Source of the DNA: a virus
Taxonomy: Duplodnaviria; Caudoviricetes
DNA: 55,437 bases
IMG/VR virus record: IMGVR_UViG_3300037755_001185
Span: 1 to 55,437 of that record
Direction: 5' to 3' (one strand)
Part shown: one piece after another, positions 1,271-34,459 of the stretch
Numbering within the stretch: position 1 is the stretch's first letter
How the letters are laid out: every line of letters starts with the position of its first letter
Position numbers and translations under genes: made by a program
The notes under the pieces: model-generated
What the model was told of the DNA's origin: nothing
Database searches by the model: none
What the model saw: the letters and a program-made list of their open reading frames with translations, nothing else

Positions 1271-1289
1271 TCGCGCCTCCCGAGGCGCG

Positions 1290-1432
1290 CTCCGACTCGG
1301 CCGACAACGCCGTCCCTGCAGGAATGAAGGACGAGGACGATGACACAGAAGACTGATGTCCCCGACATCCCCGGAATCCTCGCGATCGACTGCGAAGTCG
1401 CGATCGAAGCTGCGGCGTCATCCACCGACGTG
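1290..1432 (+). pseudogene. Fragment of a portal 3' end / capsid 5' start junction, inverted relative to the adjacent capsid fragment
   Basis: AVPAGMKDEDDDTED* / MTQKTDVPDIPGILAIDCEVAIEAAASST matches APVPAGTKDEHDDDDTRGN* / MTTTPEATELPDILAMDCEVAIEAAAPST at about 43870-44005. Confidence 0.85.
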
Positions 1433-10182: not shown

Positions 10183-10388
10183 ACAGAACGCCAGTGAGTT
10201 CGTCATACGCCGCTTCGGTCGGCTACGACGCGAACACAACGACTCTTGAAGTCGAGCATCACGACGGGTCCGTATACCAATACTTCGACATTCCAGAAAC
10301 TGTGTATCGAGAGTTGATGCAGGCAAGCTCATTCGGGGCATTCATGCATACCGAAATCAGAGACCAATACCGATACACGAAGGTTTGA
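10179..10388 (+). CDS. KTSC domain protein
   Basis: RTPVSSS..SVGYD..TLEVE..G.VYQYFDIPETVYRELMQASSFGAF..IRDQY. Confidence 0.85.
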   Translation: MNRTPVSSSYAASVGYDANTTTLEVEHHDGSVYQYFDIPETVYRELMQASSFGAFMHTEIRDQYRYTKV

Positions 10389-10393
10389 AAAGA

Positions 10394-10434
10394 ATGACGA
10401 GACAGAACTCGAACTGATATGGATCGGCAACGAG
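10394..10434 (+). pseudogene. Scar of a Type III Mod gene 5' end
   Basis: ATG-ACG-AGA-CAG, then (1-nt shift) LELIWIGNE; 22/27 nt identical to Mod LELTWIGKE at 16236-16262. Confidence 0.6.
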
Positions 10435-10460
10435 ATCGAAAGGAGCTTTGAAGAGAACTG

Positions 10461-17921: not shown

Positions 17922-17922
17922 A

Positions 17923-18948: not shown

Positions 18949-21656
18949 GCATTCAACAGGTCAACGCTATCAGCAACCGCCTGAGCCTTCGGCCGCCCCA
19001 GCGTGATTCGCTCGAAATCCTCGCACGGCTCTGTGAGATCATCACGCTCGAAAAGGACGGCGACACCGCCAAGGCTCTCGAAATCATCCGTTCGGAATTC
19101 CCACAGGTCGAAGACTTCGAGCGGGACTTTCCGTCGCTGTGCTTTGCGCTCGCAACTGGCGTGGGCAAGACGCGGCTGATGGGTGCGTTCATCGCGTATC
19201 TGTACCAGAGCCAGAACATCCGGCACTTCTTCGTGCTCGCCCCGAACCTGACCATCTACAACAAACTGATTGCCGATTTCACGCCGAACACCGCGAAGTA
19301 TGTCTTCAAGGGGATCGGGGAGTTCGCCCAATCACCACCGCTGATCGTGACAGGCGACAATTACCAGAGCGGTCGTGGCATTCGCAGGGAAGGCTATCTA
19401 CCTGGAGTGGATAGCTGGGAAGAAGATGTGCACATCAACATCTTCAATATCTCCAAGATCAACAGCGAAGTCCGTGGCGGCAAGTCCCCTCGAATCAAGC
19501 GGCTGAGCGAGTACATCGGCGAGAGTTACTTCGATTATCTGGCCGGGCTTGATGACCTCGTCATTCTCATGGATGAATCGCATCGCTACCGGGCCAGCGC
19601 CGGTGTGCGGGCGATCAACGAACTCAAACCGATTCTCGGTCTGGAACTGACTGCCACGCCACAGGTCGAACGTGGACAGCAAGCCGATCCGTTCAAGAAC
19701 GTGATCTACAGTTATCCGCTCTCCGCCGCGATGGATGACGGGTTCGTCAAGGAACCCGCAGTGGCAACGCGCGAGAACTTCGATCCCGCCGCATACACGG
19801 CCGACGGGCTGGAGAAGGTCAAGCTCGAAGACGGCGTGCGGATTCACGAAAACACCAAGGTTGAGTTGGAGGTGTACGCACGCAACAGCGACCAGACGAT
19901 TGTGAAGCCGTTCATGCTTGTGGTCGCACAGGATACAAACCACGCCAACGCCCTTCAGGACGTCATTGAGTCTGACCGCTTTTTCGAGGGGCGGTATCAG
20001 GGAAAGGTGATCACGGTCCACTCGAACATTCGGGGAGAGGAGAAGGATGAGGTGGTAGACCAGTTGCTGACGGTGGAGCACGCCGACAACCCGGTCGAGA
20101 TCGTCATCCACGTCAACATGCTCAAAGAGGGCTGGGACGTGACGAACCTCTACACGATCGTGCCGCTCCGAGCGGCGAATTCTCGCACGCTCGTGGAGCA
20201 GTCAATTGGCCGAGGCCTGCGCCTGCCGTACGGTCAACGGGTTGGTGTGCCGGCGGTGGATCGACTGACGATCGTCTCCCACGACAAGTTCCAGGACATC
20301 ATCGACCACGCAAACGACCCAAACTCAATCATTCGTACAGGCGTGGTGATTGGCCGTGATATCCCGAGCGACGGCAAGAAGGCGGTTGTTGTCGAGTCGC
20401 AGTTTGAGAAGATCATCTCGGGTGCAGCGCAGGCTGAGGGAACGACGGCCGTCGGCAATGGTCCGGCACTGTTCGACACGCCGGAAGAGCAGGAAGTGGC
20501 GAAGGCGACATTCCAGGTCATCAAGCAGTACGAACGGCTCAAAGGAAGCGATCAACTTCAGAACGCGGACGTGCAGAATGACATCGTGCGAAAGGTTCAG
20601 GAGATTGTTCGGCCGACTCAAGGGGTACTTGCGGGAATCGCCGAGCCGGTGGATGTTGCGGTGGTCGTCCAGAAGACGACAGCTTTGTATCGCGATCGCT
20701 CCATCGACGTACCGCGGATCGTGGTTGTGCCACTGGGCGATGTCGTTTCGGGCTACGGGGATTTCGATCTCGATACGAGCAACATCAATCTCCAGCCCGT
20801 CGATCAAGACATCCTGATCCAACATCTGCACGATCACCAGCGCTACAAACTGCGCGACGGCTCTGGCATCGTCGAGGAGAATCGACCGGAGAACTACCTT
20901 GTACGAGGCCTCATCGACTACGACGACATCAGCTATGACGACCACGCGAGTCTGCTCTACAAGTTGGCCGGACAGGTTGTCGAGCATCTGCGTTCATACC
21001 TGGCCGACGATGATCAGGTTGTCAATGTGCTGCAATACCACCAGCAGGGACTTGTGAAACTGATCCACTCGCAAATGCAGGGGCATTTCGTGGAGGAGGC
21101 CGCGGGCTATGAGGCTCATGTGACCAAGGGCTTCCGCACCCTTCGAGCAAATAACTACACGGCAGGCGCTTCCGAGACGGTGCGTAACTTCAGGACGTCT
21201 ATTCCCGATGGCGACAAAAGCCGGATCCGGACAATGCTGTTCGGTGGCTTTTCCACGTGCCTGTACCCCGAACAGAAGTTCGACACGGATTCAGAACGGC
21301 GCTTCGCTGTCATTCTTGAAAACGAGGACGAAGTACTCAAATGGTTCAAACCCGCAACGGGAGACTTCCAGATTCACTACAGCCAGGAGTCGTCCTATGA
21401 GCCGGACTTCGTCGTCGAGACGAAGACTGAGAAGTTGCTCTGCGAACCCAAGCGTGCCAGCGAGATGACGGACGATGTTGTTCTCGCCAAGGCGGAGGCG
21501 GCCGCAGTCTGGTGTGAGCACGCGAGCCAGCACGCGAAGGACGGTGACGGCAAGCCCTGGAAGTACCTGCTGATTCCACACGATGCGATCACGGACCAGA
21601 TGACCCTCAGCGGGCTGGCCGCTCGATACGAGGTTCACACGAAGTCCACGAAATGA
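18945..21656 (+). CDS. res: Type III restriction endonuclease Res subunit
   Basis: LATGVGKT, MDESH, LTATP, LKEGWDV, QSIGRGLR, C-terminal YEPDFVVE..LCEPK nuclease motif. Confidence 0.9.
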   Translation: MSIQQVNAISNRLSLRPPQRDSLEILARLCEIITLEKDGDTAKALEIIRSEFPQVEDFERDFPSLCFALATGVGKTRLMGAFIAYLYQSQNIRHFFVLAPNLTIYNKLIADFTPNTAKYVFKGIGEFAQSPPLIVTGDNYQSGRGIRREGYLPGVDSWEEDVHINIFNISKINSEVRGGKSPRIKRLSEYIGESYFDYLAGLDDLVILMDESHRYRASAGVRAINELKPILGLELTATPQVERGQQADPFKNVIYSYPLSAAMDDGFVKEPAVATRENFDPAAYTADGLEKVKLEDGVRIHENTKVELEVYARNSDQTIVKPFMLVVAQDTNHANALQDVIESDRFFEGRYQGKVITVHSNIRGEEKDEVVDQLLTVEHADNPVEIVIHVNMLKEGWDVTNLYTIVPLRAANSRTLVEQSIGRGLRLPYGQRVGVPAVDRLTIVSHDKFQDIIDHANDPNSIIRTGVVIGRDIPSDGKKAVVVESQFEKIISGAAQAEGTTAVGNGPALFDTPEEQEVAKATFQVIKQYERLKGSDQLQNADVQNDIVRKVQEIVRPTQGVLAGIAEPVDVAVVVQKTTALYRDRSIDVPRIVVVPLGDVVSGYGDFDLDTSNINLQPVDQDILIQHLHDHQRYKLRDGSGIVEENRPENYLVRGLIDYDDISYDDHASLLYKLAGQVVEHLRSYLADDDQVVNVLQYHQQGLVKLIHSQMQGHFVEEAAGYEAHVTKGFRTLRANNYTAGASETVRNFRTSIPDGDKSRIRTMLFGGFSTCLYPEQKFDTDSERRFAVILENEDEVLKWFKPATGDFQIHYSQESSYEPDFVVETKTEKLLCEPKRASEMTDDVVLAKAEAAAVWCEHASQHAKDGDGKPWKYLLIPHDAITDQMTLSGLAARYEVHTKSTK

Positions 21657-24205: not shown

Positions 24206-26425
24206 TTGGGTTCATACATGATAGAGAATGTGAACTGTGGGTCGGGTAGCTACCTGTTTGCTTGCTTTGGCGGCGATTTGATTTGTTCGCCGGCAACAGT
24301 ATTTGGTCGCATCAACGACGATTCTCTAATCCCATCTCTCATTGCCCTTCTAGAGAAAGAATACGGCGGTGAGGGCAATCCGAGCTTCCATGCCCAACCC
24401 GTGACCGACACCGAAGAGGCGGACCAGATTCTGCTCGATGAGGCCATCGACGAGCTGGCCATATACGACGATCCTGATCCCGGCATCTACGATCCGCCAC
24501 CATCGCGGCAGACAATGCTGAGGGCCTTCTACGCGCAACGGACGGAAAAGTGGACCGAGATGCTGCTGTCCAGGAAGTCCAAGACATCCACTTCGCCGAA
24601 CACCAACGGCAGCCCATTGTCCGATGACGTGCTCCTGCAGATTTGCCGCACTCCGACCGATGACGAGCGAGTTACCGCAGAGTGGATGGCAGATCTGCGG
24701 CTCATGGCTTCACTCGTCGATGCCAGCCGCAACTCGAATCGGATTGGCCTGGAACACGCCGTGACCTTGCTGGCTGGATGCATCGGCCAGCTTCCGCAGT
24801 ACAACCCCACCCACCTGCCGTTCGGATACAGTGGCCCAACAATCAAATCGCATCATTGGATGGACCACGACGCTCTGGAGCAGATCGCGAAGCAGATAGT
24901 CGGCTTGATCTGGCACGACGTGGACCCTGATGTTGTGGCGTCTGATGTCACACGATGCGTTTCTGAGGCGATCCGTCTTGGCTTCATCGAGCAACAAGAG
25001 TACGACGCCTGGAGGCCGGGAATGCGGAGCGGATCGGGTTGGCGCACCGCAGTGACTGCTACCCCTTACGGCATGACGAAGGCGCGAACCTTTTTCGAGG
25101 TGGCCACGCCACCCGAGGACAAGGAGTCGGACCAGACTCCGGTCCGGCAGCTTGCAGCGGCTCTCAAAGAGCTGCGACTGGCCACCGGCGAACTGCTCAT
25201 TTGTTCTGAAAAGGAGGACATCTATCCGGATATGGAGATCATGACGTATCACCAGGCTCTGCGCGATGCCGAGTCCCGTGTTGATGGTATTGGCGCTCAC
25301 CTTGCATACGGTCGCGAGAAACCAGGGCAGATCGAAACAGACCTCCGCGAGACGCTCCACAACTTGTCGTCGGCAGTCGGGTATGTCGCCTCTGACTACA
25401 ACGACCAGCCTGGAGCGTATCCACTGCCGAAGGAGATCACTGCGCCGGGATGGGAAGCACTGAAGGGCCTCAGGCCCCTCGAAATGGTATTGGCCATGAC
25501 GACGATGAAGCCCGGCGATTTGGAGATGCCGGTGGAAGACCGGCGCGTGTCAGGCCTCATTCTCCTCATGCTCCTGGCGCAGGCCTACTACAAAATGCTG
25601 GAGTGCGTCATCTCGATGGCCAGCTGGTGCTCGGCACTCGACGTGGAGTTGAACCAATCCTATTTGTGGGTCACCAGCAGCCTGACAAATCTGCTGAAGA
25701 ACCACGAGGATCTCAAAGACTTCCCGGTCGAATTCAAATCGATCTTCGATGATCTGTATCCGTCGACGGTCCGCGACCTCGAGTGGGAAGACATGGTGGC
25801 TCCCGAAGTCGAGCGGTTCCTCAGCACCGTCCAGAGGTACGTTCACGAGAATGGTGTCTACGAGCCCGAAGAGGGTTCAACGGCATGGACGTTTGTCCAA
25901 CTGTTCCGCCCCTCGGTCGACACAGCAATCTCTCGCGCCCTGGACTATCACAAGCGCATGCGCCAGTACGCCCAGAAGGCGTTTGCGGGAATATCCGCAG
26001 GCGGGAGCATTCAGGCGGGCGGCGCAATCAATGCCGCCGGTGAGATCAATGCCGGTGGAGAGTTTGCAGCTGGAGGGGATGTCCGGGCGGGTTCGCCATC
26101 TCCCGCAACCCCTTTGACGAAGCCATCCGGAACAACAGTGGCAGCAAACCCTATCGCCTCGAAAGACAGCACGTACGAATGGGCCAGACAGACTGAGCTG
26201 GTGCGAGCCACCGATCAGGTTCTTGGCCAAGGCACGCTCAGCCCGGGCGTGCTCTCCCGGGCATGTGGCCACCAGATCGAGACGAATGGCAAGCGCGGCC
26301 AAGGCTCCCGTGTGAAGGTGAGAAGTTTCCTTCCCTGGGTCACGCGCAAGTTCAACCTCGCCAAGGGCGAACAGACTCAGATTCGCAACGCCATCATTGG
26401 CGAGATCAACGAGCGCAACTCGTAG
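24206..26425 (+). CDS. Large hypothetical protein with Gly-rich hexapeptide repeats and C-terminal HTH-like domain (start uncertain)
   Basis: 739-aa ORF; AGGxIx repeats; shared WARQ.EL.RA...VLG.G..NG..G...RVKV.SF..W domain. Confidence 0.7.
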   Translation: MGSYMIENVNCGSGSYLFACFGGDLICSPATVFGRINDDSLIPSLIALLEKEYGGEGNPSFHAQPVTDTEEADQILLDEAIDELAIYDDPDPGIYDPPPSRQTMLRAFYAQRTEKWTEMLLSRKSKTSTSPNTNGSPLSDDVLLQICRTPTDDERVTAEWMADLRLMASLVDASRNSNRIGLEHAVTLLAGCIGQLPQYNPTHLPFGYSGPTIKSHHWMDHDALEQIAKQIVGLIWHDVDPDVVASDVTRCVSEAIRLGFIEQQEYDAWRPGMRSGSGWRTAVTATPYGMTKARTFFEVATPPEDKESDQTPVRQLAAALKELRLATGELLICSEKEDIYPDMEIMTYHQALRDAESRVDGIGAHLAYGREKPGQIETDLRETLHNLSSAVGYVASDYNDQPGAYPLPKEITAPGWEALKGLRPLEMVLAMTTMKPGDLEMPVEDRRVSGLILLMLLAQAYYKMLECVISMASWCSALDVELNQSYLWVTSSLTNLLKNHEDLKDFPVEFKSIFDDLYPSTVRDLEWEDMVAPEVERFLSTVQRYVHENGVYEPEEGSTAWTFVQLFRPSVDTAISRALDYHKRMRQYAQKAFAGISAGGSIQAGGAINAAGEINAGGEFAAGGDVRAGSPSPATPLTKPSGTTVAANPIASKDSTYEWARQTELVRATDQVLGQGTLSPGVLSRACGHQIETNGKRGQGSRVKVRSFLPWVTRKFNLAKGEQTQIRNAIIGEINERNS

Positions 26426-26451
26426 CGCAACTTGCCCGTTTGAAGTTGCGC
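26425..26451. promoter_or_regulatory. Operator-like inverted repeat GCGCAACTT-N9-AAGTTGCGC
   Basis: Perfect 9-bp arms upstream of the phage early operon; further TTGCGC half-sites near 26530-26546. Confidence 0.5.
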
Positions 26452-26634
26452 ACAGAGTACTTCTGAACTTTTCTTCGCCTGTCAGCATTGCCCAAACGGC
26501 AGGAACTGAGGCTCTGGGCCGCTTTCTTGTTGCGCTTTCGTTGCGCTGAAAAAGCATCTGATTAACTGGCCTCATCGCAGTTGCTCAGGCCTGCATAGTG
26601 CTTGCCTCAGACAACCTGCAGAAAGGTCTGTTCA

Positions 26635-26964
26635 ATGGTCGCAAACGTAGCGAAGACCAGTCTGACCCCCTCCCAGCTGAGGCTCCTCACCGAGATGCAG
26701 CGGATCAACTACGGCCGCATCCTCGATCTGCCGGTGCGCCGTGGCGAGCCGGTGTTGGACCCGCCGTCGCGCGTCATGCGCGAGATCAAGTTCGGCGGAG
26801 ACAACGGACCGCGCCCCGAAGCCGTCAAGGCCGACTTTGCGCTCAAGGCCCAGGTCCGCGATCTCTTCGCCTGCCTGGAGTCGATGGGTGATGGCGTGAT
26901 CTCGTGCATCGAGATTCAGCGCGGTCTGCCGTTTCGGATGACCGTCGAGGAGGTGAGCGCCTGA
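26635..26964 (+). CDS. Conserved phage hypothetical protein (first early gene)
   Basis: MQRINYGRILDLPVRRGEP..REIKFGG..DFALKAQV..IEIQRGLPFRM; AAAGG RBS. Confidence 0.7.
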   Translation: MVANVAKTSLTPSQLRLLTEMQRINYGRILDLPVRRGEPVLDPPSRVMREIKFGGDNGPRPEAVKADFALKAQVRDLFACLESMGDGVISCIEIQRGLPFRMTVEEVSA

Positions 26965-27034
26965 GCAAAGGGGCTGGACTCCCCATATGTGATTCAAACA
27001 AACTGATTACCTGACAACAAACCGGCCACGAAGT

Positions 27035-27141
27035 GGAGGCGTTGTGGGTGCCGCAGATGCGGCAATCCTGCAACGCCTCCTCTGCGTGCGCGATCGCTGC
27101 ATCGACTGGTTCCCACATGACGCCTCCCGGCCGACGGGAGG
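27035..27141 (+). promoter_or_regulatory. Candidate cis-regulatory RNA switch controlling the sigma-factor RBS
   Basis: GGAGGCGTTGTGGG can pair with 27071-27080 or with 27112-27127; CCTCCCG/CGGGAGG hairpin covers the RBS. Confidence 0.55.
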
Positions 27142-27146
27142 TCCAA

Positions 27147-27743
27147 TTGGACACCAATCGAAAGCACGAAGAACTCACCGAGTACGCACTTGAAGTCGTT
27201 CACCACAAAGCCCGGCAGCTGGTCGGCAAGGCCGGCTACACGAATGACGATGTCGCGGACATCGAACAGGATCTGATCACAGACCTGCTCGAGCGTCTGC
27301 CGAAGTTCGATCCAAGCAAGGCGACCCACAACACGTTCGTCGCCCGCCTGGTCGAACGGAAGATCAGCAATCTGCTTCGTGATCGTCTGGCAGCGATGCG
27401 TGACTGTCGCCGTGAGGACTGCTCACTCAACGACGAGATCGACACCGGCGATGAAGAGCCGCCCACGCAACGCGTCGCCACCATCAGTCAGGACGAGCAC
27501 GACCTGCGGACTGGCAAGTACGCCCGGCCCGCCGAGGAGCGCGCCGATCTGCGCTGCGACATCGAAGCGGTGCTGGCCGTGTTGCCGCCGGAGTTGCGTG
27601 AGGACGCAGACATGTTGGCCGTCATGCCCATCACAGAAGTCGCCCGCACACTCGGCGTGCCGCGCGCCACGTTCTACGACAACTACCTCGCCAAGATCCG
27701 CGCGGTGTTCGAGGACAAGGGGCTCAACGGCTACCTGACGTGA
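27147..27743 (+). CDS. Phage-encoded sigma-70 (ECF-like) factor
   Basis: Region 2-like DDVADIEQDL..KFDPSKA..TFVARLVERKISNLLR and region 4 HTH ITEVARTLGVPRATFY; TTG start after GGGAGG. Confidence 0.75.
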   Translation: MDTNRKHEELTEYALEVVHHKARQLVGKAGYTNDDVADIEQDLITDLLERLPKFDPSKATHNTFVARLVERKISNLLRDRLAAMRDCRREDCSLNDEIDTGDEEPPTQRVATISQDEHDLRTGKYARPAEERADLRCDIEAVLAVLPPELREDADMLAVMPITEVARTLGVPRATFYDNYLAKIRAVFEDKGLNGYLT

Positions 27744-27751
27744 TCCTCTCT

Positions 27752-27786
27752 CCGACAGTCTGTCCCAGCGCCGGGTAAGTAACCAG
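27752..27786 (+). promoter_or_regulatory. Bipartite motif CCGACA-N13-CCGGGTAAGTAACCAG (copy 1), putative phage sigma promoter
   Basis: Same boxes and spacing as 41541-41575; lies just upstream of the recombination operon. Confidence 0.65.
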
Positions 27787-27834
27787 AGACGGCCTGGGCA
27801 GGCTGCTTCGGTGACTTGAAAGCGAGTGAACGCA

Positions 27835-28644
27835 ATGGACCTGACGATCGACCTGAACATCCTCGAAATTGAACCCGCTGAGGAGTACCACGCCAAGGCG
27901 AGTCGATTCCTGTCGAGCCATCAACTCCTGGACTTCATCAAATGCCCGTGGCTTCATCGCAAGAAGTCACTTGGCCTCATCGCGGACAGTGAATCACCGG
28001 CGTATCTCGTCGGCCGGGCGGCTCATGTGCGCATCCTCGAAGGCCGTGATGTGTACGAAGCGGCCTTCGCGATGGGCGGGCCGGTTAACCCCAAGACGGA
28101 CAAGCCGTTCGGGACAAACACGAAGGCGTTTGCCGAGTGGGCTGAAGCCCAGGGCAAGCCGGTGCTCTCACACGATCAGGTTCAGCTCATTGAGCAGATG
28201 GCATCGGGCGTGGCCGTGAACACTGAGGCCGTTGACCTTCTGCTGCATGGCCGGGCTGAAGGCGTTGTGCGCAATGAATATTGCGGGACGCCATGTCAGA
28301 TTCGCATCGACTGGGTGCATCCTCACCGTGGGATCGTGGACTTCAAGACCTGTGATGATCTGACCTGGTTTGAGTCGGACGCGCGCCGGTACGGCTACCA
28401 CCGGCAAATGGCGTTCTACCGAGCCATCCTGGCGCGGGCTTGCGGTAACCAGCCGGTCCCCGTCCACCTCGTCGCAGTCGAAAAGCGTGAGCCATTCCGT
28501 TGCGGCGTGTGGCGTATCAGCGACGACACGTTGGCTATCGCCGAGCGCGAGAACGCCGCTGCGATTCGTCGATGGCTGGATTGCCACCAGCGCGATCATT
28601 GGCCCACTGGATACGAGGAAGTTCGTGTCCTCGATGTGGCCTGA
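27835..28644 (+). CDS. PD-(D/E)XK exonuclease-like protein (RecE/DUF3799-like)
   Basis: EEYHA..LSSHQL, GRAAHVRILEG, CQIRIDW, IVDFKT, YGYHRQMAFY. Confidence 0.8.
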   Translation: MDLTIDLNILEIEPAEEYHAKASRFLSSHQLLDFIKCPWLHRKKSLGLIADSESPAYLVGRAAHVRILEGRDVYEAAFAMGGPVNPKTDKPFGTNTKAFAEWAEAQGKPVLSHDQVQLIEQMASGVAVNTEAVDLLLHGRAEGVVRNEYCGTPCQIRIDWVHPHRGIVDFKTCDDLTWFESDARRYGYHRQMAFYRAILARACGNQPVPVHLVAVEKREPFRCGVWRISDDTLAIAERENAAAIRRWLDCHQRDHWPTGYEEVRVLDVA

Positions 28645-28705
28645 CACTTCGCGCCCGGTCGGCTTGTGGTGAGTCCTCGCGACGACCACCCGACCGGCGC
28701 ACTTC

Positions 28706-28769
28706 GGCAGGGCCGGGCGACTGGGGCCTCATGAGCTCTGGCTGGTGGGTTCGACTCCCACACCTGCCA
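28706..28769 (+). ncRNA. tRNA-like element lacking a D-arm, CAU anticodon loop
   Basis: GGCAGG/CCTGCC acceptor stem, GGGGC-CTCATGA-GCTCT anticodon arm, GTGGG-TTCGACT-CCCAC T-arm, only 10 nt in place of the D-arm. Confidence 0.6.
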
Positions 28770-28825
28770 TTTGGACGCCGGTCCCGCGAAACAACCATGG
28801 GCCCCCAAGGCACAAAGGAACAACG

Positions 28826-29638
28826 ATGTCGTTACTGAAACAGATTCGCAGTGGCCGTCGCCACACACCGCCGAGACTGTTGATCTACGGAACCGAGGGG
28901 ATCGGCAAGTCCACGATCGCCTCCCAGGCACCGAGCCCGATCTTCATTCAGACCGAAGATGGCCTGGACCAGATCGACTGTGCGTCGTTCCCACTGGCGG
29001 CGAACTTCAGCGAAATCGTCGACGCACTTTCGTCGCTCTACTCGGAGGAGCACGATTTCCAGACGGTGGTCATCGATTCCCTCGATTGGCTCGAACGACT
29101 CGTCTGGGATGACGTGTGCCGCGAGTACGGCGTGAAGTCCATCGAGAAGGCCGACGGCGGATACGCCAAGGGATACACGCACGCCCTGACCCAGTGGCGT
29201 GAAGTGCTCGATGGACTGGACGCGCTGCGCAACGACCGTGGCATGGCCGTCGTTCTCCTGGCGCATGCCAAGGTCGAGAAGTTCGATGACCCGGAGTCGG
29301 TCGCCTATGACCGCTACTCGCCCCGCCTGCACAAACACGCCTCGGCACTGATCACCGAATGGTGCGATGCGGTTCTGTTTGCCACGCGGAAGTTCCGAAC
29401 CGAGAGCGAAAGCGCGGGCTTCAACCGCACACGCTCGATTGCCGTCGCGCTTGGTCAGGATGGCGGCGAACGCATTCTGCGCTGCGTCGGATGTCCTTCA
29501 TGTACCGCGAAAAACCGCTACGGCCTTCCGGCCGAGTTGCCTCTCACATGGCCCTCCCTCATGGCCGCAATGACTGACACCCCCCCAATCTTCCCCACAC
29601 CCAGCACCACGAATAATGGAGATACCACGGATGGCTGA
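28826..29638 (+). CDS. AAA_24 / Sak4-like ATPase
   Basis: YGTEGIGKST, VIDSLDWLE, LLAHA, TAKNRYGLP. Confidence 0.85.
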   Translation: MSLLKQIRSGRRHTPPRLLIYGTEGIGKSTIASQAPSPIFIQTEDGLDQIDCASFPLAANFSEIVDALSSLYSEEHDFQTVVIDSLDWLERLVWDDVCREYGVKSIEKADGGYAKGYTHALTQWREVLDGLDALRNDRGMAVVLLAHAKVEKFDDPESVAYDRYSPRLHKHASALITEWCDAVLFATRKFRTESESAGFNRTRSIAVALGQDGGERILRCVGCPSCTAKNRYGLPAELPLTWPSLMAAMTDTPPIFPTPSTTNNGDTTDG

Positions 29639-30083
29639 TCTGAATGGCTTTGACGCACGGACTGTTGACCCCTCGACGACCTTCGACGCGATCCCCGCGG
29701 GCAAGTACATCGCCGCGATCACGGAGTCGGAGACGAAGCCGACCAAGAACGGCAACGGCAGCTACCTGCAGCTGGCGTTCACGATCATCGAGGGCGAGTA
29801 CAAGAACCGAATTCTCTGGGCGCGGCTCAATCTGCAGAACCCGAATCAGACGGCGGTGCAGATTGCCCGCTCCGAACTGTCGGCGATCTGTCACGCGGTG
29901 AGCGTGATGGCTCCGAACGACAGCGTGGAACTGCACAACCTTCCGCTCCAGATCGCGGTCAAGGTGAAGAAGCGCGAGGACACGGGCGACCTGGCCAACG
30001 AGATCAAGGGGTACGCGAAAAAGGAGGCATCACAGGGTCAGCCGCAGCAGGCACAGAACAGCACGCCGCCGTGGAGGCGGTGA
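29631..30083 (+). CDS. DUF669 protein (putative phage SSB)
   Basis: IPAGKYIAAITESE..G.YLQLAFTII.GEYKNRILW..NEIKGY..PPWRR. Confidence 0.8.
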   Translation: MADLNGFDARTVDPSTTFDAIPAGKYIAAITESETKPTKNGNGSYLQLAFTIIEGEYKNRILWARLNLQNPNQTAVQIARSELSAICHAVSVMAPNDSVELHNLPLQIAVKVKKREDTGDLANEIKGYAKKEASQGQPQQAQNSTPPWRR

Positions 30084-30084
30084 C

Positions 30085-30459
30085 ATGCGGCTGCAGCTGG
30101 AACTCCCGTGGCCACCGAGCGTGAATCACTACTGGCGGTCGATCCCAATGAGAGGGCGCGGGCACGGATGCCGGGTTGTGATCAGCCGCGAAGGCAGGGC
30201 GTATCGCAGGGATGTGTGCGCCCTCCTTCGTGATCACAGCTCCAATCCGCTGGATGGTCGGCTGCATGTCCGCGTTGTCCTCCAGCCACCCACGCGCCGT
30301 GGCCTCGACATCGACAACCGCATGAAAGCATTGCTCGACTCGTTGGAGCACGCGCGCATCTACCACGATGACGGCCAGATCGATCGGCTCGGAATTGAGC
30401 GCGGTGAGGTCTTCAAGGGAGGAAAGGCCATCGTGGAGATCATGGAGTTGCCCTCCTGA
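30085..30459 (+). CDS. rusA: RusA-family Holliday junction resolvase
   Basis: LPWPPSVNHYWR, DIDNRMKALLDSL, DDGQID. Confidence 0.9.
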   Translation: MRLQLELPWPPSVNHYWRSIPMRGRGHGCRVVISREGRAYRRDVCALLRDHSSNPLDGRLHVRVVLQPPTRRGLDIDNRMKALLDSLEHARIYHDDGQIDRLGIERGEVFKGGKAIVEIMELPS

Positions 30460-32147
30460 TGGCGATGCAACTCCGTCCATACCAGTCCGAAGCGGTGGAA
30501 TCGGTCTACCGGCATCTCCGGGATCACGATGACAACCCGTGCATTGTCATCCCGACCGCTGGTGGCAAGACACCGGTCATGGCCACGATCTGCCGAGATG
30601 CAGTCAATGCGTGGATTGGTCGCGTGCTCATCCTGGCACACGTCAAGGAGTTGCTCGAGCAGGCCGTCGACAAACTTCAGGCGATCGCCCCCGATTTGGA
30701 TGTCGGCGTGTATTCGGCGGGGTTGAAGCGACGCGACACCGGTCACCCGGTGATCGTCGCTGGCATTCAGTCGCTGTACCGCCGTGCCTGCGAGTTCGAG
30801 CCGTTCGATCTCATCATCGTTGACGAGGCGCACCTCATCCCGCCGGAGGGTGATGGGATGTATCGGAAGTTCCTGGCTGATGCGGCTGTGGTGAATCCGC
30901 GCGTGCGCGTCATCGGTCTGACCGCAACGCCATTCCGAATGGCCACCGGGGTCATTTGCCGCGAGGAGCACTTCCTCAACCGAGTCTGCTACGAGATCGG
31001 CGTCAAGGAACTCATCGTTCAGGGCTTTCTCTCTCCGCTGCGAACCAAGGCAGGGCAAAGCCGGGTGGACACTTCGAACCTGCATGTCCGGGGTGGCGAG
31101 TACATCGCGGGTGAAGTCGAAGACCTGATGGACGACGATGCACTCGTCGATGCCGCATGCGCCGAGATCGTCGAACAGACGCACGACCGACATGCGGTGC
31201 TGATCTTCGCCTCCGGTGTCAATCACGGTCGGCACATCGTGCGGGTACTCGAGGAAAGGCACGGGAGCTATTGCGGATTCGTCTGCGGCGAGACACCCGG
31301 CGCGGAGCGCAACGAACTTATTGCCCGCTTCAAACGCGGTGGCCTGAAATACCTCTGCAATGTCAATGTGCTCACGACCGGGTTCGATGCGCCCAACATC
31401 GATTGCGTGGCCATGCTCCGGCCCACGCTCTCCCCTGGCCTCTACTACCAGATGGTCGGTCGCGGATTCCGGCTCCATCCCGGCAAAACCGACTGCCTCG
31501 TGCTCGACTTCGGCGGCAATGTTCTGCGCCACGGCCCGGTCGATGATCTGCAAGTCAAGGAACCGGGACAGGGCGAAGGAGAAGCTCCTGCCAAGGAATG
31601 TCCGGAATGCCAGGCGGTCATTCATGCGGCCTACGCCAGGTGTCCGGAGTGCGGCTACGAGTTCCCGCCGCCGCAGCGTGAGCAACACGATGATCGTGCA
31701 AGCACGGCGGGTGTGCTTTCCGGCCAGATCGAAGACACGGTCCACCGCGTCAGCGATGTCTATTACAGCACCCACACCAAGCGCGGCGCGGACCCGGACC
31801 ACCCGCGTTCCATGCGTATTGAGTACCGCATCGGACTGAGCGAGTACGTCTCAGAGTGGGTCTGCTTCGAGCACACGGGTTATGCACGAACCAAGGCAGA
31901 GCAGTGGTGGCGCAAGCGGAGCCGCGAGCCGGTGCCTGTCAACACCGACGAGGCCGTAGACATCTGCGAGCGATGTGGCATCTGCGAGACGTCCTCGATC
32001 ACGGTGCGCCGCACCGCTGGCGAGAGATACGACCGCATCGTGAACTGGGAACTCGGATCGATCCCGCCGCGACTGGATGGCTCAGATGAGCGGGACGGCG
32101 ATGACCTACCCGAGTACGTCTTCGCCGATGATGAGGTGCCGTTTTGA
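30459..32147 (+). CDS. Superfamily 2 DEAH helicase with Zn ribbon
   Basis: LRPYQ, PTAGGKT, VDEAH, GLTATP, TTGFDAP, QMVGRGFR, CPEC..CPEC. Confidence 0.9.
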   Translation: MAMQLRPYQSEAVESVYRHLRDHDDNPCIVIPTAGGKTPVMATICRDAVNAWIGRVLILAHVKELLEQAVDKLQAIAPDLDVGVYSAGLKRRDTGHPVIVAGIQSLYRRACEFEPFDLIIVDEAHLIPPEGDGMYRKFLADAAVVNPRVRVIGLTATPFRMATGVICREEHFLNRVCYEIGVKELIVQGFLSPLRTKAGQSRVDTSNLHVRGGEYIAGEVEDLMDDDALVDAACAEIVEQTHDRHAVLIFASGVNHGRHIVRVLEERHGSYCGFVCGETPGAERNELIARFKRGGLKYLCNVNVLTTGFDAPNIDCVAMLRPTLSPGLYYQMVGRGFRLHPGKTDCLVLDFGGNVLRHGPVDDLQVKEPGQGEGEAPAKECPECQAVIHAAYARCPECGYEFPPPQREQHDDRASTAGVLSGQIEDTVHRVSDVYYSTHTKRGADPDHPRSMRIEYRIGLSEYVSEWVCFEHTGYARTKAEQWWRKRSREPVPVNTDEAVDICERCGICETSSITVRRTAGERYDRIVNWELGSIPPRLDGSDERDGDDLPEYVFADDEVPF

Positions 32148-34459
32148 TTGGTTGCCACAGCACCCTTCATTGCGCTGCTGCGGACTACCTCGCCGCCGGT
32201 CTCTGCGTACTGCCAGCGCGCCGGACCGAGAAGCGTCCCGCCATGGGTCGTTGGAAGCGGTATCAGAAGCAACTGCCTACGGAGGCCGAACTGTCCGCAT
32301 GGTTCGCCAACGGTCACGACGCTGTCTGCATCCTCTGCGGCCGAGCATCGAACAACCTGGAGATCATCGACTTCGATGTTGGTGGCGAGCAGTTCGCGCC
32401 ATGGTGGGATTGCATTCCTGCAGAACTGCGGGAACGGCTGGTGATCGCATCCACCCAGTCCGGTGGTCGGCATGCGATCTACCGATGTGAGTCGTCGGTA
32501 TCTGGCAACCTGAAGCTGGCTCAGCGCCGCGATGGCACGAAGATCATCACCCTCATCGAGACACGCGGCGAAGGAGGCCTGTTCCTTTGCGCGCCGACGG
32601 TTGGATACGAGATGGTTCAGGGTCACCTGTGCGATCCACCCGTGTTGACCGAAGCAGAGCGGGATGCGCTCCTGCAGTCGGCGTGGGAATTGAACGCACA
32701 TGTGCCGCAGGTGGTCGATGGTCCGTCTGACAATGGCGTTCACCGCCAGAGAAGCACGTTGTCCGTCGAACAATGCGCATCTCCGCCAGACAAATCCGAC
32801 AGGCCCGGCGATGACTTCAACCGTCGCGGAGATGTGAGGGACTTGCTCGAACAACACGGGTGGGTTCGCACCAAGGCGGGAGAAAACGAATACTGGCGTC
32901 GTCCGGGCAAGAGCGCGGGCATGTCCGCCACGCTCAAGGACCGGGTCTTCTACGTCTTCTCGTCCAATGCCGCGCCGTTCGAGCCGAATCAGGCATACTC
33001 ACCGTTCTCGGTATACACACAGCTCATCTGCGGCGGAGACTTCGAGCAGGCGGCGCGTTCTCTGAGAGAACTCGGCTTTGGCGGCGACTCCCCCGGTTCT
33101 CTGACCGACCACGCCACGGGCGTGGACATCTCGGCCATTGTGCGAATGTCTGCCGCACCAGGCGCAAGTTCACCAGACAATGGCCACTCCGGCGAATGTC
33201 CGACCGACACCGCCGACCCGGGCCCGCTGCCCGCCGAGATGCTGCGCATTCCCGGCTTTGTTGGCCAGGTCATGGACTTCTGTCTGGCGACCGCGCCGTA
33301 CCCAAACCCGGTCATGGCATTCTGTGGCGCGATCTCACTACTGGCATTCCTCGCCGGTCGCAAGGTGCGCGACTCCGGCGACAACCGCACCAACTTCTAC
33401 CTGCTCGGTCTGGCCCACTCCTCGGCGGGCAAGGACTGGCCACGCAAGATCAACACACGCATCGTCCACGAGGTCGGCCTGGCCGATTGCCTTGGTGAAC
33501 GGTTCGCCTCGGGCGAAGGCATCCAGGATGCTCTCTTTCAGACGCCGAGCATGCTTTTCCAGACCGACGAGATCGACGGCATGCTCCAGTCGATCAACAA
33601 GGCCAAAGACGCCCGGCACGAAGCGATCATGTCCACGCTGCTGACGATGTATTCATCGGCCAACAGCGTCTTCCCCATGCGCCGCAAAGCGGGCAAGGAA
33701 TCGCCCGGCGTGATCGACCAGCCGAACCTGGTCATCTTCGGAACCGCCATCCCCAACCACTATTACGAAGCGCTGAGCGAGCGCATGCTCACCAACGGCT
33801 TCTTCGCCCGCATGATCATCCTCGAAGCAGGTCAGCGCGCCTCGGGGCAGGAGCCGAGCATTCGTGATCTTCCCACGCGCGTGCTTGAGACCGCCCGCTG
33901 GTGGTCGGACTACCGGCCGGGACGGGGCAATCTGGATGACTGGCACCCGGTGCCGACGGTGATCAGGCACACGGATGAGGCCAGACGTCTGATCGTCGAG
34001 ACGCGCGAGGAAGCCGAGAGCGAGTACGCCATGGCTGAGGCGAGCAGCGATCCAGTGGGAACGACGGTCTGGGGGCGAGTCAGCGAGCAAGTGCGCAAGC
34101 TGGCGCTGCTTTACGCGATCAGCGAGAACCACGAAACACCACGGATCGGCGTCGATGCAGTGCGCTGGGCTTCGGCCTTCGTCATGCACCAGACGAAACG
34201 CATGCTCTTCATGGCGGCGAGTCATGCCGCGGACGGGGAGTTCGACGGGCTCATCAAACGGGCCGTTGCCATTCTGAGGGACTGGCACGAGAAGCACAGT
34301 CACGACAGCCTGGTACCGGCGTGGTATCTCCGACGCCGGCTGAAGCAGCGGCCCGGTGACTTCAAGGACATTGTGGTCGAACTGGCGGAGCGGCGCATTG
34401 CCGAGTACGCCACGGAACCCGGAACCACCAAACCCAAGTCAGGATACCGACTCTTATGA
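32144..34459 (+). CDS. Bifunctional primase/polymerase with C-terminal DUF3987-like ATPase
   Basis: IIDFD, STQSGGRHAIY, IETRGEGG, YWRRPGK, SSAGKD, TDEID. Confidence 0.8.
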   Translation: MIGCHSTLHCAAADYLAAGLCVLPARRTEKRPAMGRWKRYQKQLPTEAELSAWFANGHDAVCILCGRASNNLEIIDFDVGGEQFAPWWDCIPAELRERLVIASTQSGGRHAIYRCESSVSGNLKLAQRRDGTKIITLIETRGEGGLFLCAPTVGYEMVQGHLCDPPVLTEAERDALLQSAWELNAHVPQVVDGPSDNGVHRQRSTLSVEQCASPPDKSDRPGDDFNRRGDVRDLLEQHGWVRTKAGENEYWRRPGKSAGMSATLKDRVFYVFSSNAAPFEPNQAYSPFSVYTQLICGGDFEQAARSLRELGFGGDSPGSLTDHATGVDISAIVRMSAAPGASSPDNGHSGECPTDTADPGPLPAEMLRIPGFVGQVMDFCLATAPYPNPVMAFCGAISLLAFLAGRKVRDSGDNRTNFYLLGLAHSSAGKDWPRKINTRIVHEVGLADCLGERFASGEGIQDALFQTPSMLFQTDEIDGMLQSINKAKDARHEAIMSTLLTMYSSANSVFPMRRKAGKESPGVIDQPNLVIFGTAIPNHYYEALSERMLTNGFFARMIILEAGQRASGQEPSIRDLPTRVLETARWWSDYRPGRGNLDDWHPVPTVIRHTDEARRLIVETREEAESEYAMAEASSDPVGTTVWGRVSEQVRKLALLYAISENHETPRIGVDAVRWASAFVMHQTKRMLFMAASHAADGEFDGLIKRAVAILRDWHEKHSHDSLVPAWYLRRRLKQRPGDFKDIVVELAERRIAEYATEPGTTKPKSGYRLL

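What the first reader, a model, noticed from the sequence alone, without database searches (positions are those of the whole stretch)
28651..28769. D-arm-less tRNA-like RNA (CAU loop) inside the recombination operon
Seen: a 64-nt fold with a 6-bp acceptor stem, a canonical T-arm (GTGGG-TTCGACT-CCCAC), a 5-bp anticodon stem with a CT-CAT-GA loop, a 5-nt variable loop, and only 10 nt where the D-arm belongs. A long hairpin (CCGGTCGG/CCGACCGG) precedes it. The arms are retained while the D-arm is cleanly absent, which looks unlike random decay. Inference: a tRNA mimic acting as a decoy for anticodon nucleases, an RNase P/Z processing signal for the polycistron, or a Y-RNA-like scaffold.
Basis: partly seen in the sequence, partly recalled or inferred. 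Interest (0 to 1): 0.78.

Follow-up and report, generated by a model that had tools for sequence, protein, structure and literature searches.

The report
D-stem-less tRNA-Met-like RNA in phage operon
A small RNA shaped like a methionine tRNA without its D stem, preceded by a strong hairpin, is conserved after the exonuclease gene of phages of Planctomycetota and probably marks a cutting site in the operon's RNA.

Summary
Window 28706-28769 (+) folds as a tRNA with a 6-bp acceptor stem, a canonical T arm, a CUCAUGA loop and no D stem. A 50-nt hairpin (28651-28700) lies 5 nt upstream.

It is not a chance fold or a lone pseudogene. The same D-stem-less element sits at the same place in 16 of 161 Sak4-anchored sources. 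Two DNA pattern scans brought the total to 45 distinct copies in 71 loci. No relative has a full tRNA there.

On 23 distinct copies 93.4% of cells pair and 7 pairs change on both sides; 0 of 500 shuffles reach this. RNAalifold finds the same fold unaided. There are 22 G.U cells against 1 C.A, which points to a + strand RNA.

In 44 of 54 distinct contexts the module directly follows the stop codon of the PD-(D/E)XK exonuclease gene, while the next gene varies. CAU is kept in 25 of 27 short copies; 13 other copies carry a long hairpin instead.

The record has no integrase. Host tRNA-Met genes differ.

Best reading (inferred, about 0.4): a tRNA-derived RNase P/Z cutting signal whose flanking hairpins cap the mRNA ends. 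No expression data were available.

The parts
27826..28644 (+). PD-(D/E)XK exonuclease gene (DUF3799 / exonuclease VIII-like). Its stop codon ends 6 nt before the hairpin.
   Evidence: Pfam PF12684 E 7.4e-29; PHROG 412 E 8e-46. In 44 of 54 distinct contexts the RNA module directly follows this gene's conserved C-terminus.
28651..28700 (+). Upstream GC-rich long hairpin. It is the short 'variant A' of a conserved upstream domain.
   Evidence: Inverted repeat I1. MFE -29.7 kcal/mol, z -3.15. Consensus fold of 16 variant-A copies has 18 pairs, 4 of them with changes on both sides.
28701..28705 (+). 5-nt pyrimidine-rich spacer. It would be the 5' leader if RNase P cuts before 28706.
   Evidence: Spacers of about 3-6 nt (longer in two loci) separate the hairpin from the tRNA-like element in relatives. 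Cleavage is inferred.
28706..28769 (+). D-stem-less tRNA-Met-like element.
- Acceptor: 28706-11 / 28763-68.
- G.A mismatch: 28712 / 28762.
- 8-nt connector with conserved GG: 28713-20.
- 7-bp stem: 28721-27 / 28735-41.
- Loop: 28728-34 (CAU at 28730-32).
- 3-nt joint: 28742-44.
- T arm: 28745-61.
- Discriminator A: 28769.
   Evidence: Model R1 scores it 80.4 bits. Covariation. RNAalifold finds the same structure.
28773..28784 (+). Small downstream hairpin (4 bp with a 4-nt loop), 3 nt after the discriminator.
   Evidence: Present in the MFE of 28649-28790. Relatives nearly always have a short palindromic hairpin 2-12 nt after the discriminator.
28826..29638 (+). Sak4-like AAA_24 ssDNA-annealing ATPase gene, with a purine-rich Shine-Dalgarno-like run at 28815-28819.
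   Evidence: Pfam PF13479 E 3e-50; PHROG 124 E 5.1e-45.

Best explanation
Window 28651-28784 is one copy of a conserved RNA module of phages and prophages of Planctomycetota. The module has three parts: a stable GC-rich hairpin domain, a few spacer bases, and a 64-nt RNA descended from a tRNA-Met(CAU) gene. A small hairpin follows.

The 64-nt RNA has lost its D stem. It keeps the acceptor stem, the T arm, a GG-containing connector and a paired anticodon-like arm.

Shown:
- The fold.
- Its conservation and covariation.
- Its + strand RNA signature.
- Its fixed position right after the exonuclease gene.

Inferred mechanism:
- The module is transcribed as part of the recombination/replication operon.
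- Host RNase P cuts before 28706 and RNase Z cuts after 28769, as for a CCA-less pre-tRNA.
- This severs the polycistron at the junction.
- The exonuclease mRNA is left with the big hairpin as a protective 3' end, and the downstream mRNA with a 5' hairpin.
- A roughly 64-nt tRNA-like RNA is released.

The CAU loop is conserved in the short copies. This suggests that the element is also read by a tRNA-Met-specific partner such as MetRS, but that second role is not required in the long-hairpin copies.

My odds: about 0.85 that this is a selected, structured, tRNA-derived RNA, and about 0.4 that RNase P/Z punctuation is its main function.
For: 1. Family. The element occurs in 16 of 161 Sak4-anchored sources. 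Of 87 model matches in 89 sources, 67 score 60 bits or more. There are 45 distinct elements in 71 loci.

2. Structure.
- On 23 distinct copies 93.4% of cells pair, against 87.1% when shuffled.
- 7 pairs change on both sides, and 0 of 500 shuffles reach these values.
- Sliding the partners drops pairing to 35-56%.
- RNAalifold predicts the same three-way fold on its own.
- The Rfam tRNA model aligns relatives in the same register with the D arm deleted: L005 26.2 bits, L008 25.8 bits.

3. Acceptor stem. It is kept through changes in L006/L007 (A-U to G-C at pair 4) and L013 (G-C to A-U at pair 6, G.A to G-C at pair 7).

4. RNA strand. There are 22 G.U cells against 1 C.A cell in the stems.

5. 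Position. 44 of 54 distinct contexts lie directly after the exonuclease stop codon, 61-108 nt from the stop to the tRNA-like start (172 in one). The next gene varies among Sak4, a small NYRN..DPPTSALAGR protein, another P-loop protein and a KKEALTIAPPKFE protein.

6. What RNase P and Z need is what is conserved. The 7+5 coaxial acceptor/T helix, the T loop and GG in the connector are kept. The anticodon arm can be replaced by a 10-12 bp hairpin (13 of 41 distinct copies) or by a 41-nt insert (L199).

7. Host tRNA genes in 5 related Planctomycetota genomes lack an encoded CCA, and several have U-rich trailers. The element is also CCA-less and is mostly followed by UU.

8. A second, unrelated defective tRNA-like element sits between the SSB-like gene and the next gene of the same operon in more distant relatives. 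It has a D arm but a 6-nt 'anticodon' loop (L043/44/48/74).
Against: - No transcript data: no RNA run holds this virus. Transcription, cleavage and stability effects are all inferred.
- RNase P/Z recognition does not explain the loop. CUCAUAA-type loops are far more conserved than the stem beneath them. U24, C25, A26 and A29 are invariant in 23 copies, and CAU is present in 25 of 27 short copies. Some other selection acts on the loop.
- A phage could get a cutting site far more cheaply, for example from RNase E or RNase III.
- In 9 of 54 contexts my motif test found no exonuclease C-terminus upstream, and in one more too little upstream sequence was held to tell. In some of these loci (L008/L084, L085, L239) repeat-rich non-coding DNA lies upstream.
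- In some loci the upstream hairpin is followed by a short U run. There it could terminate transcription before the tRNA-like element.
- The window's own copy is a weaker member. It has three G.U pairs in the 7-bp stem, and its tRNA-like fold is 6.3 kcal/mol above the MFE.
- Sampling is biased. Two of the three routes to family members fixed part of the RNA sequence. As a result the acceptor stem is invariant in alignment A2, and its covariation rests on three loci with two distinct sequences.
Confidence: 0.4

Rival explanations
1. Trans-acting tRNA mimic. The released or embedded RNA binds a tRNA-Met-specific host factor: MetRS, a modification enzyme, or a tRNA-cleaving defence or toxin nuclease. 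It acts as a decoy, sponge or sensor. Lacking the D stem, it would be recognised without being fully usable.
For: - The loop is under stronger constraint than the stem: U24, C25, A26 and A29 are invariant while 6 of 7 stem pairs covary.
- CAU is present in 25 of 27 short copies, and the other 2 have CAC.
- The CAU anticodon alone is enough for MetRS recognition, and an mRNA tRNA-mimic can be re-aimed to MetRS by changing the anticodon-like triplet (PMC9976931, passages read).
- Phage tRNAs that counter anticodon nucleases are in print. I saw only search listings and abstract starts: PMC10264068, PMC11464382, PMC11555353.
Against: - 13 of 41 distinct copies have no anticodon-like loop yet keep every other part intact, with covarying long stems.
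- The fixed position after one gene is not needed for a trans-acting RNA.
- No candidate nuclease or partner gene was found in the record.
Confidence: 0.2
2. A working D-arm-less tRNA. After processing and CCA addition it is charged (Met, or Ile after lysidine formation at C34) and decodes on the host ribosome.
For: - It has a 7-nt loop with U33 and a purine at 37, a CAU anticodon, G1-C72, A73, a canonical T loop, and GG in the connector available for the T-loop contact.
- It has tRNA-like dimensions apart from about 9 missing D-arm bases.
- A synthetic D-arm-less tRNA is accepted by E. coli HisRS, EF-Tu and ribosome without adaptation and is limited by PNPase (PMC11551756, abstract and passages).
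- Human mitochondrial tRNA-Ser(GCU) shows the same solution: a D-replacement loop plus an extended anticodon stem (PMC9427863, passages).
Against: - The long-hairpin copies cannot decode.
- Every host already has tRNA-Met, so no codon-supply benefit is evident for AUG.
- A conserved G.A mismatch lies at the base of the acceptor stem in 23 of 23 copies.
- The 7-bp stem and 3-nt joint change the geometry.
- No phage-encoded CCA-adding enzyme is present.
Confidence: 0.12
3. Cis-acting transcription or translation control. The big hairpin is a terminator or attenuator for the early genes. The tRNA-like fold is an anti-terminating or RNA-polymerase/ribosome-binding structure for the downstream genes.
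For: - The GC-rich hairpin is followed by a pyrimidine-rich or short U spacer in several loci.
- The connector (CCGGGCG, 28713-19) is complementary to the 5' strand of the hairpin (28652-58, I8), which would allow alternative pairing.
Against: - The consensus scan calls no terminator here.
- The connector/hairpin complementarity does not covary. L013, L085 and L227 change the connector while the hairpin keeps GCCCGGGC.
- The distance to the next start codon varies from 33 to 183 nt, and the next gene varies.
Confidence: 0.08
4. DNA-level element: an attP/att remnant of tRNA-targeted integration, or a single-strand DNA initiation signal or origin for the neighbouring helicase/primase-polymerase.
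For: - Related prophages lie beside normal tRNA genes (Pro, Val, Lys).
- tRNA gene fragments at integration sites are common (PMC9897764, search listing only).
- The element lies in the replication/recombination module.
- In a few loci it lies next to iteron-like repeats.
- G.T pairs are also tolerated in single-stranded DNA.
Against: - The record has no tyrosine or serine recombinase.
- In prophages the att-side tRNA genes are about 3.6 kb away and of other identity.
- Both acceptor strands are present and covary.
- tRNA-Met, tRNA-fMet and Ile2-like genes of 5 related host genomes do not share the acceptor or T-arm sequence.
- The strand asymmetry (22 G.U against 1 C.A) excludes a double-strand cruciform.
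Confidence: 0.05
5. A tRNA pseudogene with no function, carried along by linkage.
For: The window copy alone scores below every Rfam threshold, and its fold is not its MFE.
Against: - There are 45 distinct copies with the same deletion.
- Stem changes are compensatory.
- Loops and connector GG are invariant.
- Hairpins are conserved on both sides.
- No intermediate or further-decayed forms occur at the site.
Confidence: 0.04

Closest known systems
D-armless mitochondrial tRNA-Ser(AGY/GCU) of animals
   Same: It has a short D-replacement loop in place of the D arm. The anticodon stem is lengthened by pairs between replacement-loop and variable-loop bases: 6 bp in human (PMC9427863, passages) and 7 bp here.
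   Different: - This element is in a bacterial virus, not an organelle.
- It has a Met-type CAU loop, not Ser.
- Its T loop is canonical and its connector is 8 nt with conserved GG, so a T-loop contact is possible. The human tRNA has no tertiary core.
- Function as a tRNA is unproven here.
Synthetic mini HisT (D-arm-deleted tRNA used by E. coli)
   Same: It is about 62-64 nt, the D arm is removed and the rest is canonical. It shows that bacterial synthetase, EF-Tu and ribosome can accept such a fold, and that PNPase limits it (PMC11551756, abstract and passages).
   Different: Mini HisT is man-made, has His identity and a 4-nt linker. The element here is natural, conserved and embedded between hairpins in an operon.
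tRNA-like processing signals: mascRNA at the MALAT1 3' end and the tRNA punctuation of mitochondrial transcripts (recalled, not from a call)
   Same: A tRNA-shaped element inside a long transcript is cut out by RNase P and RNase Z. In MALAT1 a stable structure just upstream becomes the protected 3' end. The layout here matches: big hairpin, 5-nt spacer, tRNA-like element. The anticodon arm is not needed.
   Different: Those are eukaryotic or organellar. Cleavage has not been shown here. The CAU loop is conserved in most copies, which mascRNA-type signals do not need.
Viral 3' tRNA-like structures (tymovirus type) and mRNA tRNA mimics such as the thrS operator
   Same: These are tRNA mimicry inside a viral or messenger RNA that is read by host tRNA enzymes through anticodon-like bases (PMC9976931, passages).
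   Different: - The only similarity found is a sub-threshold hit: Tymo_tRNA-like 23.4 bits against a gathering score of 40, in L008.
- Those use pseudoknotted acceptor arms at RNA genome ends or operator sites next to a start codon. This one has a normal acceptor stem in a dsDNA phage operon.
Bacterial Y RNA-like YrlA (tRNA-like module plus Ro-binding stem; recalled)
   Same: It is a non-coding RNA of bacteria and phages with a T-arm/acceptor mimic.
   Different: No Y RNA family match at E up to 10. No TROVE/Ro gene in the record. Here an anticodon-like arm is present and the D arm is absent.
Phage tRNA genes and tRNA gene fragments at att sites
   Same: The element clearly descends from a tRNA-Met(CAU) gene. 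Full tRNA-Met genes with a near-identical acceptor and T arm occur in tRNA arrays of unrelated phages.
   Different: It is not a full tRNA and not a 3' fragment. It is a precise internal loss of the D stem, shared by all copies, at a fixed mid-operon site with no integrase.

Membership tests
Canonical bacterial/phage tRNA (Rfam RF00005) | 7-bp acceptor stem plus discriminator | tested here: inconclusive
   6 standard pairs plus a G.A mismatch at pair 7, conserved in 23 of 23 copies. The discriminator is A.
Canonical bacterial/phage tRNA (Rfam RF00005) | D arm (3-4 bp stem with a GG-containing loop) | tested here: not met
   Only 8 unpaired nt (28713-28720) lie between the acceptor and anticodon-like stems. 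Infernal deletes the D arm. RNAalifold leaves it unpaired. ARAGORN's forced D arm costs the acceptor stem 3 of its 7 pairs. GG is retained.
Canonical bacterial/phage tRNA (Rfam RF00005) | Anticodon arm with a 7-nt loop, U33 and purine 37 | tested here: met
   The window loop is CUCAUGA. The stem is 7 bp with covariation. This is not met in the 13 long-hairpin copies.
Canonical bacterial/phage tRNA (Rfam RF00005) | T arm: 5-bp stem and a UUCRANY loop | tested here: met
   28745-28761. All cells pair in 23 copies, and one pair changes on both sides.
Canonical bacterial/phage tRNA (Rfam RF00005) | Score at or above the family gathering threshold (29 bits) | tested here: not met
   In the window the best match in the tRNA clan (the only one the scan lists) is tRNA-Sec at 18.4 bits, E 2.6. 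Relatives score 25.8-26.2 bits.
Canonical bacterial/phage tRNA (Rfam RF00005) | Processed, CCA-tailed, aminoacylated and used in decoding | not testable with these tools
   No RNA run is listed for this virus.
D-armless tRNA (mitochondrial tRNA-Ser type) | D arm replaced by a short loop, with an anticodon stem extended by pairs to the variable region | tested here: met
   8-nt connector. Pairs 16-36 and 17-35 covary (CG, UA, AU, UG). Compare PMC9427863.
D-armless tRNA (mitochondrial tRNA-Ser type) | Organellar gene with serine identity and adapted partners | tested here: not met
   The record is a phage of Planctomycetota. The loop is CAU.
tRNA-like RNase P/Z processing signal (mascRNA / punctuation type) | tRNA-shaped element inside a longer transcript at a gene junction, with a stable structure just upstream | tested here: met
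   It lies between the exonuclease stop codon and the next gene in 44 of 54 contexts. The hairpin ends 5 nt before the element.
tRNA-like RNase P/Z processing signal (mascRNA / punctuation type) | Actual cleavage at the 5' and 3' ends by RNase P and RNase Z | not testable with these tools
   This needs RNA end mapping or enzyme assays.
att site / tRNA gene fragment | Identity to the 3' part of a host tRNA gene, next to an integrase, at the prophage edge | tested here: not met
   No PF00589 or PF00239 match in the record. Host tRNA-Met, tRNA-fMet and Ile2-like genes in 5 genomes differ. The element is mid-operon. The 5' acceptor strand is present and covaries.
Y RNA / YrlA | Ro-binding stem and a Ro (TROVE) partner; match to a Y RNA model | tested here: not met
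   No such Rfam match at E up to 10. No TROVE domain in the record.
tmRNA tRNA-like domain | tRNA-like domain formed by the two RNA ends, with a tag reading frame between them | tested here: not met
   ARAGORN's tmRNA search found none. No Rfam tmRNA match.

The most novel reading that the evidence does not exclude
[quoted passage not shown] After RNase P/Z processing and CCA addition, the 64-nt RNA is charged through its CAU anticodon (Met, or Ile after lysidine formation) and works on a bacterial ribosome. This would be the first non-organellar tRNA without the cloverleaf. Losing the D arm might let it escape host tRNA-targeting nucleases or modification checks that read the D arm or elbow.
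Probability: 0.12. Interest if true: 0.9.

Novelty: new variant of a known kind. Interest (0 to 1): 0.66.

Why it matters
D-arm-less tRNA shapes are known from animal mitochondria and from one engineered E. coli system. A 2024 paper states that all known bacterial tRNAs keep the cloverleaf (PMC11551756 abstract).

Here a phage lineage has fixed a precise D-stem loss in a tRNA-Met-derived RNA and kept it under selection at one operon junction, in dozens of variants.

- If it is a cutting signal, it is a bacterial-virus counterpart of the mascRNA/mitochondrial 'tRNA punctuation' principle. It would be a compact natural part for splitting operon RNAs.
- If it is charged or bound by MetRS or a tRNA nuclease, it becomes a natural test case for how much of the tRNA fold bacterial enzymes need. 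It would also be a possible counter-defence device.

Either way it gives ARAGORN-type annotation a named source of false 'tRNA-Met' calls in Planctomycetota phages.

Tried and rejected
- Full-cloverleaf reading (ARAGORN, 28692-28769): rejected. Its acceptor stem has 4 of 7 pairs. In L006 and L013 the acceptor changes fit only the D-armless register.
- Thermodynamics alone are uninformative. The 181-nt region has z -1.11 and the 64-nt element z -1.6. The MFE equals or contains all 18 target pairs in only 6 of 23 copies.
- Cultured phages: blastn of 27800-29700 against 50,697 phage records gave no match.
- Rfam, evalue mode, on the window region and on 12 loci: nothing reached a gathering score except tRNA in L074, which is the other tRNA-like element.
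- Sequencing runs: no RNA holder listed.
- Connector/hairpin alternative pairing (I8): no covariation, dropped.
- Promoter/terminator consensus scan: 0 promoters and no + strand terminator in 26400-30600.
- Partner genes in the record: no TROVE/Ro, CCA-adding enzyme, tyrosine integrase or serine recombinase. Pfam on 30 ORFs showed no tRNA-processing or RNA-repair enzyme.
- Second pattern scan freeing the 3' half: 33 stretches, only 1 new. The acceptor and T-arm sequence is therefore nearly fixed in what IMG/VR holds.
- Literature: I found no description of a D-arm-less tRNA-like family in phages or bacteria. A catalogue of 10,006 candidate structured RNAs from IMG/VR (PMC10690425, passages read) names tRNA-like candidates only for Tyr, Asp, Cys and Arg.
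Full report
**What the window is**

The window is a whole IMG/VR virus record of 55,437 bp, 61% G+C. CheckV rates it complete and no end repeats were found.

Genes around the finding form a recombination/replication operon on the + strand:
- sigma-factor-like gene, 27033-27743
- PD-(D/E)XK exonuclease (DUF3799), 27826-28644
- Sak4-like AAA_24 protein, 28826-29638
- DUF669 SSB-like protein, 29616-30083
- RusA, 30085-30459
- helicase, 30459-32147
- primase-polymerase, 32144-34459

Terminase, portal and capsid genes lie further on.

The closest relatives of the Sak4 gene in 185,579 species genomes are almost all Planctomycetota MAGs and isolates (Phycisphaerae, Pirellulales, Gemmatales). By title there are two exceptions among the 80 loci kept. 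The host phylum is thus very likely Planctomycetota.

**Checking the observation**

ARAGORN finds one tRNA in the whole window, tRNA-Met(cat) at 28692-28769. Its drawing pairs only 4 of 7 acceptor positions so that it can create a D arm. The upstream hairpin is real.

On its own the 64-nt fold is unremarkable. Its z-score is -1.6, and the tRNA-like fold lies 6.3 kcal/mol above the MFE. Whether it exceeds chance had to be settled with relatives.

**Relatives**

I gathered 160 loci through the neighbouring Sak4 protein, 80 viral and 80 genomic. This route is blind to the RNA sequence.
- A covariance model built later (R1) finds the element in 16 of 161 sources: the window, L002, L005-L008, L011-L015 and L084-L088.
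- These are the loci whose Sak4 is about 71% or more identical to the window's.
- All 16 have the D-stem-less form. None has a full tRNA there.

Two DNA pattern scans of IMG/VR added more copies. One fixed the T-loop and acceptor 3' strand (80 stretches, probably the cap). The other fixed the connector and loop (33 stretches, 1 of them new).

With R1, 87 matches at E up to 0.001 were found in 89 sources, and 67 of them score 60 bits or more. I took those 67 plus L085, L086, L013 and L227. That gives 71 loci, 45 distinct elements and 54 distinct contexts.

The weaker matches (32-55 bits) include ordinary full-length tRNA-Met genes, several of them in tRNA arrays of unrelated phages. These share the acceptor and T-arm sequence but have a D arm and, in several cases, an encoded CCA. 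The family therefore most likely descends from such a phage tRNA-Met(CAU) gene.

**Structure and selection**

Twenty-three distinct 64-nt copies align without gaps (A2). I tested a structure of acceptor 1-7/57-63, stem 16-22/30-36 and T stem 40-44/52-56.
- 93.4% of 437 cells pair, against 87.1% when shuffled.
- 7 of 19 pairs change on both sides, in 26 cells.
- 0 of 500 shuffles reach these values.
- Sliding the partners by 1-3 columns gives 35-56% pairing.
- RNAalifold predicts exactly this fold unaided.

Six of the seven pairs of the anticodon-like stem covary, including the two outer pairs. The stem is therefore 7 bp, the D replacement 8 nt and the variable region 3 nt.

The acceptor stem is invariant in A2 because the scans fixed it. 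In the Sak4-anchored loci it changes in step: pair 4 in L006/L007, and pairs 6 and 7 in L013. That is thin but consistent, and it fits only the D-armless register.

The stems hold 22 G.U cells and a single C.A cell. The selected structure is therefore on the + strand, in the sense of the genes, as an RNA. A single-stranded + DNA is less likely but not excluded.

The connector always keeps GG (G10 and G11 invariant). This is where a D loop's G18 G19 would touch the T loop. That reading rests on general tRNA knowledge.

**Two forms of the third arm**

Of 41 distinct family sequences:
- 27 are short (63-66 nt) with a tRNA-like loop.
- 13 are long (69-74 nt). Here the loop is replaced, so that the arm is a 10-12 bp hairpin with varied small loops.
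- 1 (L013) has a 6-bp stem with a 15-nt loop.

Among the 27 short copies, 25 have CAU and 2 have CAC. U24, C25, A26 and A29 are invariant in A2.

L199 keeps the CAU loop sequence but carries a 41-nt hairpin insert.

The long forms occur with each kind of upstream domain. They keep every other part intact, and their long stems differ by compensating changes.

Two conclusions follow. The core function does not need an anticodon loop. In the short form, however, the loop is under stronger constraint than the stem beneath it.

**The surroundings of the element**

In 44 of 54 distinct contexts an ORF ending in the exonuclease's conserved C-terminus (…PTGYE…) stops 61-108 nt before the tRNA-like start (172 in one). 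The upstream domain therefore begins within a few bases of the stop codon.

The next gene starts 33-183 nt downstream and differs between loci. It can be Sak4, a small NYRN..DPPTSALAGR protein, another P-loop protein, or a KKEALTIAPPKFE protein.

The upstream domain comes in several variants:
- A, 19 contexts: a roughly 50-60-nt long hairpin, as in the window. Its consensus fold has 18 pairs, 4 with changes on both sides.
- B, 24 contexts: about 85 nt and branched, with a conserved GGACUCCCU stretch.
- C, 5 contexts.
- L190: this version contains a perfect T arm, which suggests that the upstream domain is itself tRNA-derived.

A short palindromic hairpin follows the discriminator by 2-12 nt in nearly all loci. 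In the window it is at 28773-28784.

**Rivals tested**

att remnant:
- The record has no tyrosine or serine recombinase.
- In related prophages the flanking host tRNA genes (Pro, Val, Lys) are about 3.6 kb away.
- In five related host genomes the model finds prophage copies (two in G002). Otherwise it finds only host tRNA-fMet, tRNA-Met and Ile2-like genes with different acceptor stems.

Y RNA: no Rfam hit and no Ro gene.

tmRNA: none.

Pseudogene: contradicted by the uniform architecture and the covariation.

Attenuator by alternative pairing of the connector with the hairpin (I8): the complementarity does not covary.

**Mechanism**

What is conserved matches what bacterial RNase P and RNase Z read. 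This is established tRNA-processing knowledge, not tested here. The conserved parts are a 12-bp acceptor/T coaxial helix, an intact T loop with a partner GG, a single-stranded 5' leader of a few bases, and a discriminator followed by a CCA-less trailer that is mostly UU.

The host tRNA genes seen here are also CCA-less, and several have U-rich trailers. The arm that those enzymes ignore is the one that is free to change.

The module is tied to the 3' end of one gene rather than to the 5' end of the next. A very stable hairpin sits 5 nt upstream of the predicted RNase P site. This is the layout by which the MALAT1/mascRNA system makes a protected 3' end (recalled).

More distant relatives carry a different defective tRNA-like element in another junction of the same operon. 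It has a D arm but a 6-nt 'anticodon' loop, and lies between the SSB-like gene and the next gene. This fits a general use of tRNA shapes as punctuation in these phages.

I therefore favour RNase P/Z punctuation with hairpin-capped products, at about 0.4.

The constraint on the CAU loop is not explained by this. CAU is by itself sufficient for MetRS recognition (PMC9976931). A D-arm-less tRNA can work in E. coli (PMC11551756). A second role, as a mimic or even as a tRNA, stays open.

**Limits**

- No RNA data exist for this virus.
- E-values of R1 are rough.
- Pattern-based sampling fixes parts of the sequence.
- The shuffle control ignores relatedness.
- Acceptor covariation rests on three loci carrying two distinct sequences.
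- Supplementary tables that might list this motif (PMC10690425) could not be read.

**Verdict**

The element is a real, conserved, tRNA-Met-derived RNA without a D stem, and part of a three-piece module. It is a new variant of known kinds (tRNA-like processing signals and D-armless tRNAs) in an unexpected place. I found no description of it in six literature searches.

Noticed in passing
L043:4287-4356, L044:3182-3251, L048:4288-4356, L074:3591-3660: A second, unrelated odd tRNA-like element occurs in more distant relatives. It has an acceptor stem, a D arm and a T arm, but a shortened anticodon region with a 6-nt loop. It sits in the roughly 110-nt gap between the SSB-like gene and the next gene of the same operon. 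The Rfam tRNA model scores it 34.3 bits in L074 and 27.7 bits in L043.
   Followed up: partly
L190 (upstream of 169-239, - strand); variant B/C upstream domains in L011, L006 and others: The hairpin domain upstream of the tRNA-like element contains a perfect T arm in L190. In variants B and C it has a conserved GGACUCCCU / CGACUCCCUGCCA stretch resembling the 3' half of the tRNA-like element. The upstream domain may therefore be an older, more degenerate copy of the same tRNA.
   Followed up: partly
L008/L084 (upstream of 264), L009 (upstream of 232), L085 (about 2300-2330 and upstream of 4001), L239: Arrays of short GGCWAGGC-like repeats (iteron-like) lie next to the RNA module or directly upstream of Sak4 in some relatives. 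They may be a replication origin. I saw them only by reading the sequence.
   Followed up: no
L163/L164/L178/L217 versus L192/L226: In some loci the exonuclease stop codon TGA reads TGG. The ORF then runs on through the hairpin and, by my reading of the frame, stops at the TAA inside the CUCAUAA loop.
   Followed up: no
L005, L092, L095, L172, L195, L204 intergenic spacers: A CCCCGGAAGTT-like motif recurs, sometimes as an inverted pair (L204), in the spacers around the module and inside the element in L172. It may be a small mobile palindrome or a protein-binding site.
   Followed up: no
window 2439-4310 (-) and 8239-21656 (+): The window holds a long run of large NTPase and DNA-modification genes: UvrD-like helicase, HerA/DUF87 ATPase, SNF2 helicase, SMC-like ATPase, N6/N4 DNA methylase, RhuM family protein and a ResIII helicase. 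It looks like a defence or anti-defence island carried by the phage.
   Followed up: partly
window 229-1476 (-) and 43919-45982 (+): Two ORFs match the same capsid family (Phage_capsid_4), one at the left end on the opposite strand. The record may hold remnants of a second element or a duplicated head gene.
   Followed up: no
window 28692-28699 and 28776-28783: A perfect 8-nt inverted repeat brackets the tRNA-like element (I6), and the MFE of the 181-nt region uses it. I did not check whether relatives keep it.
   Followed up: no
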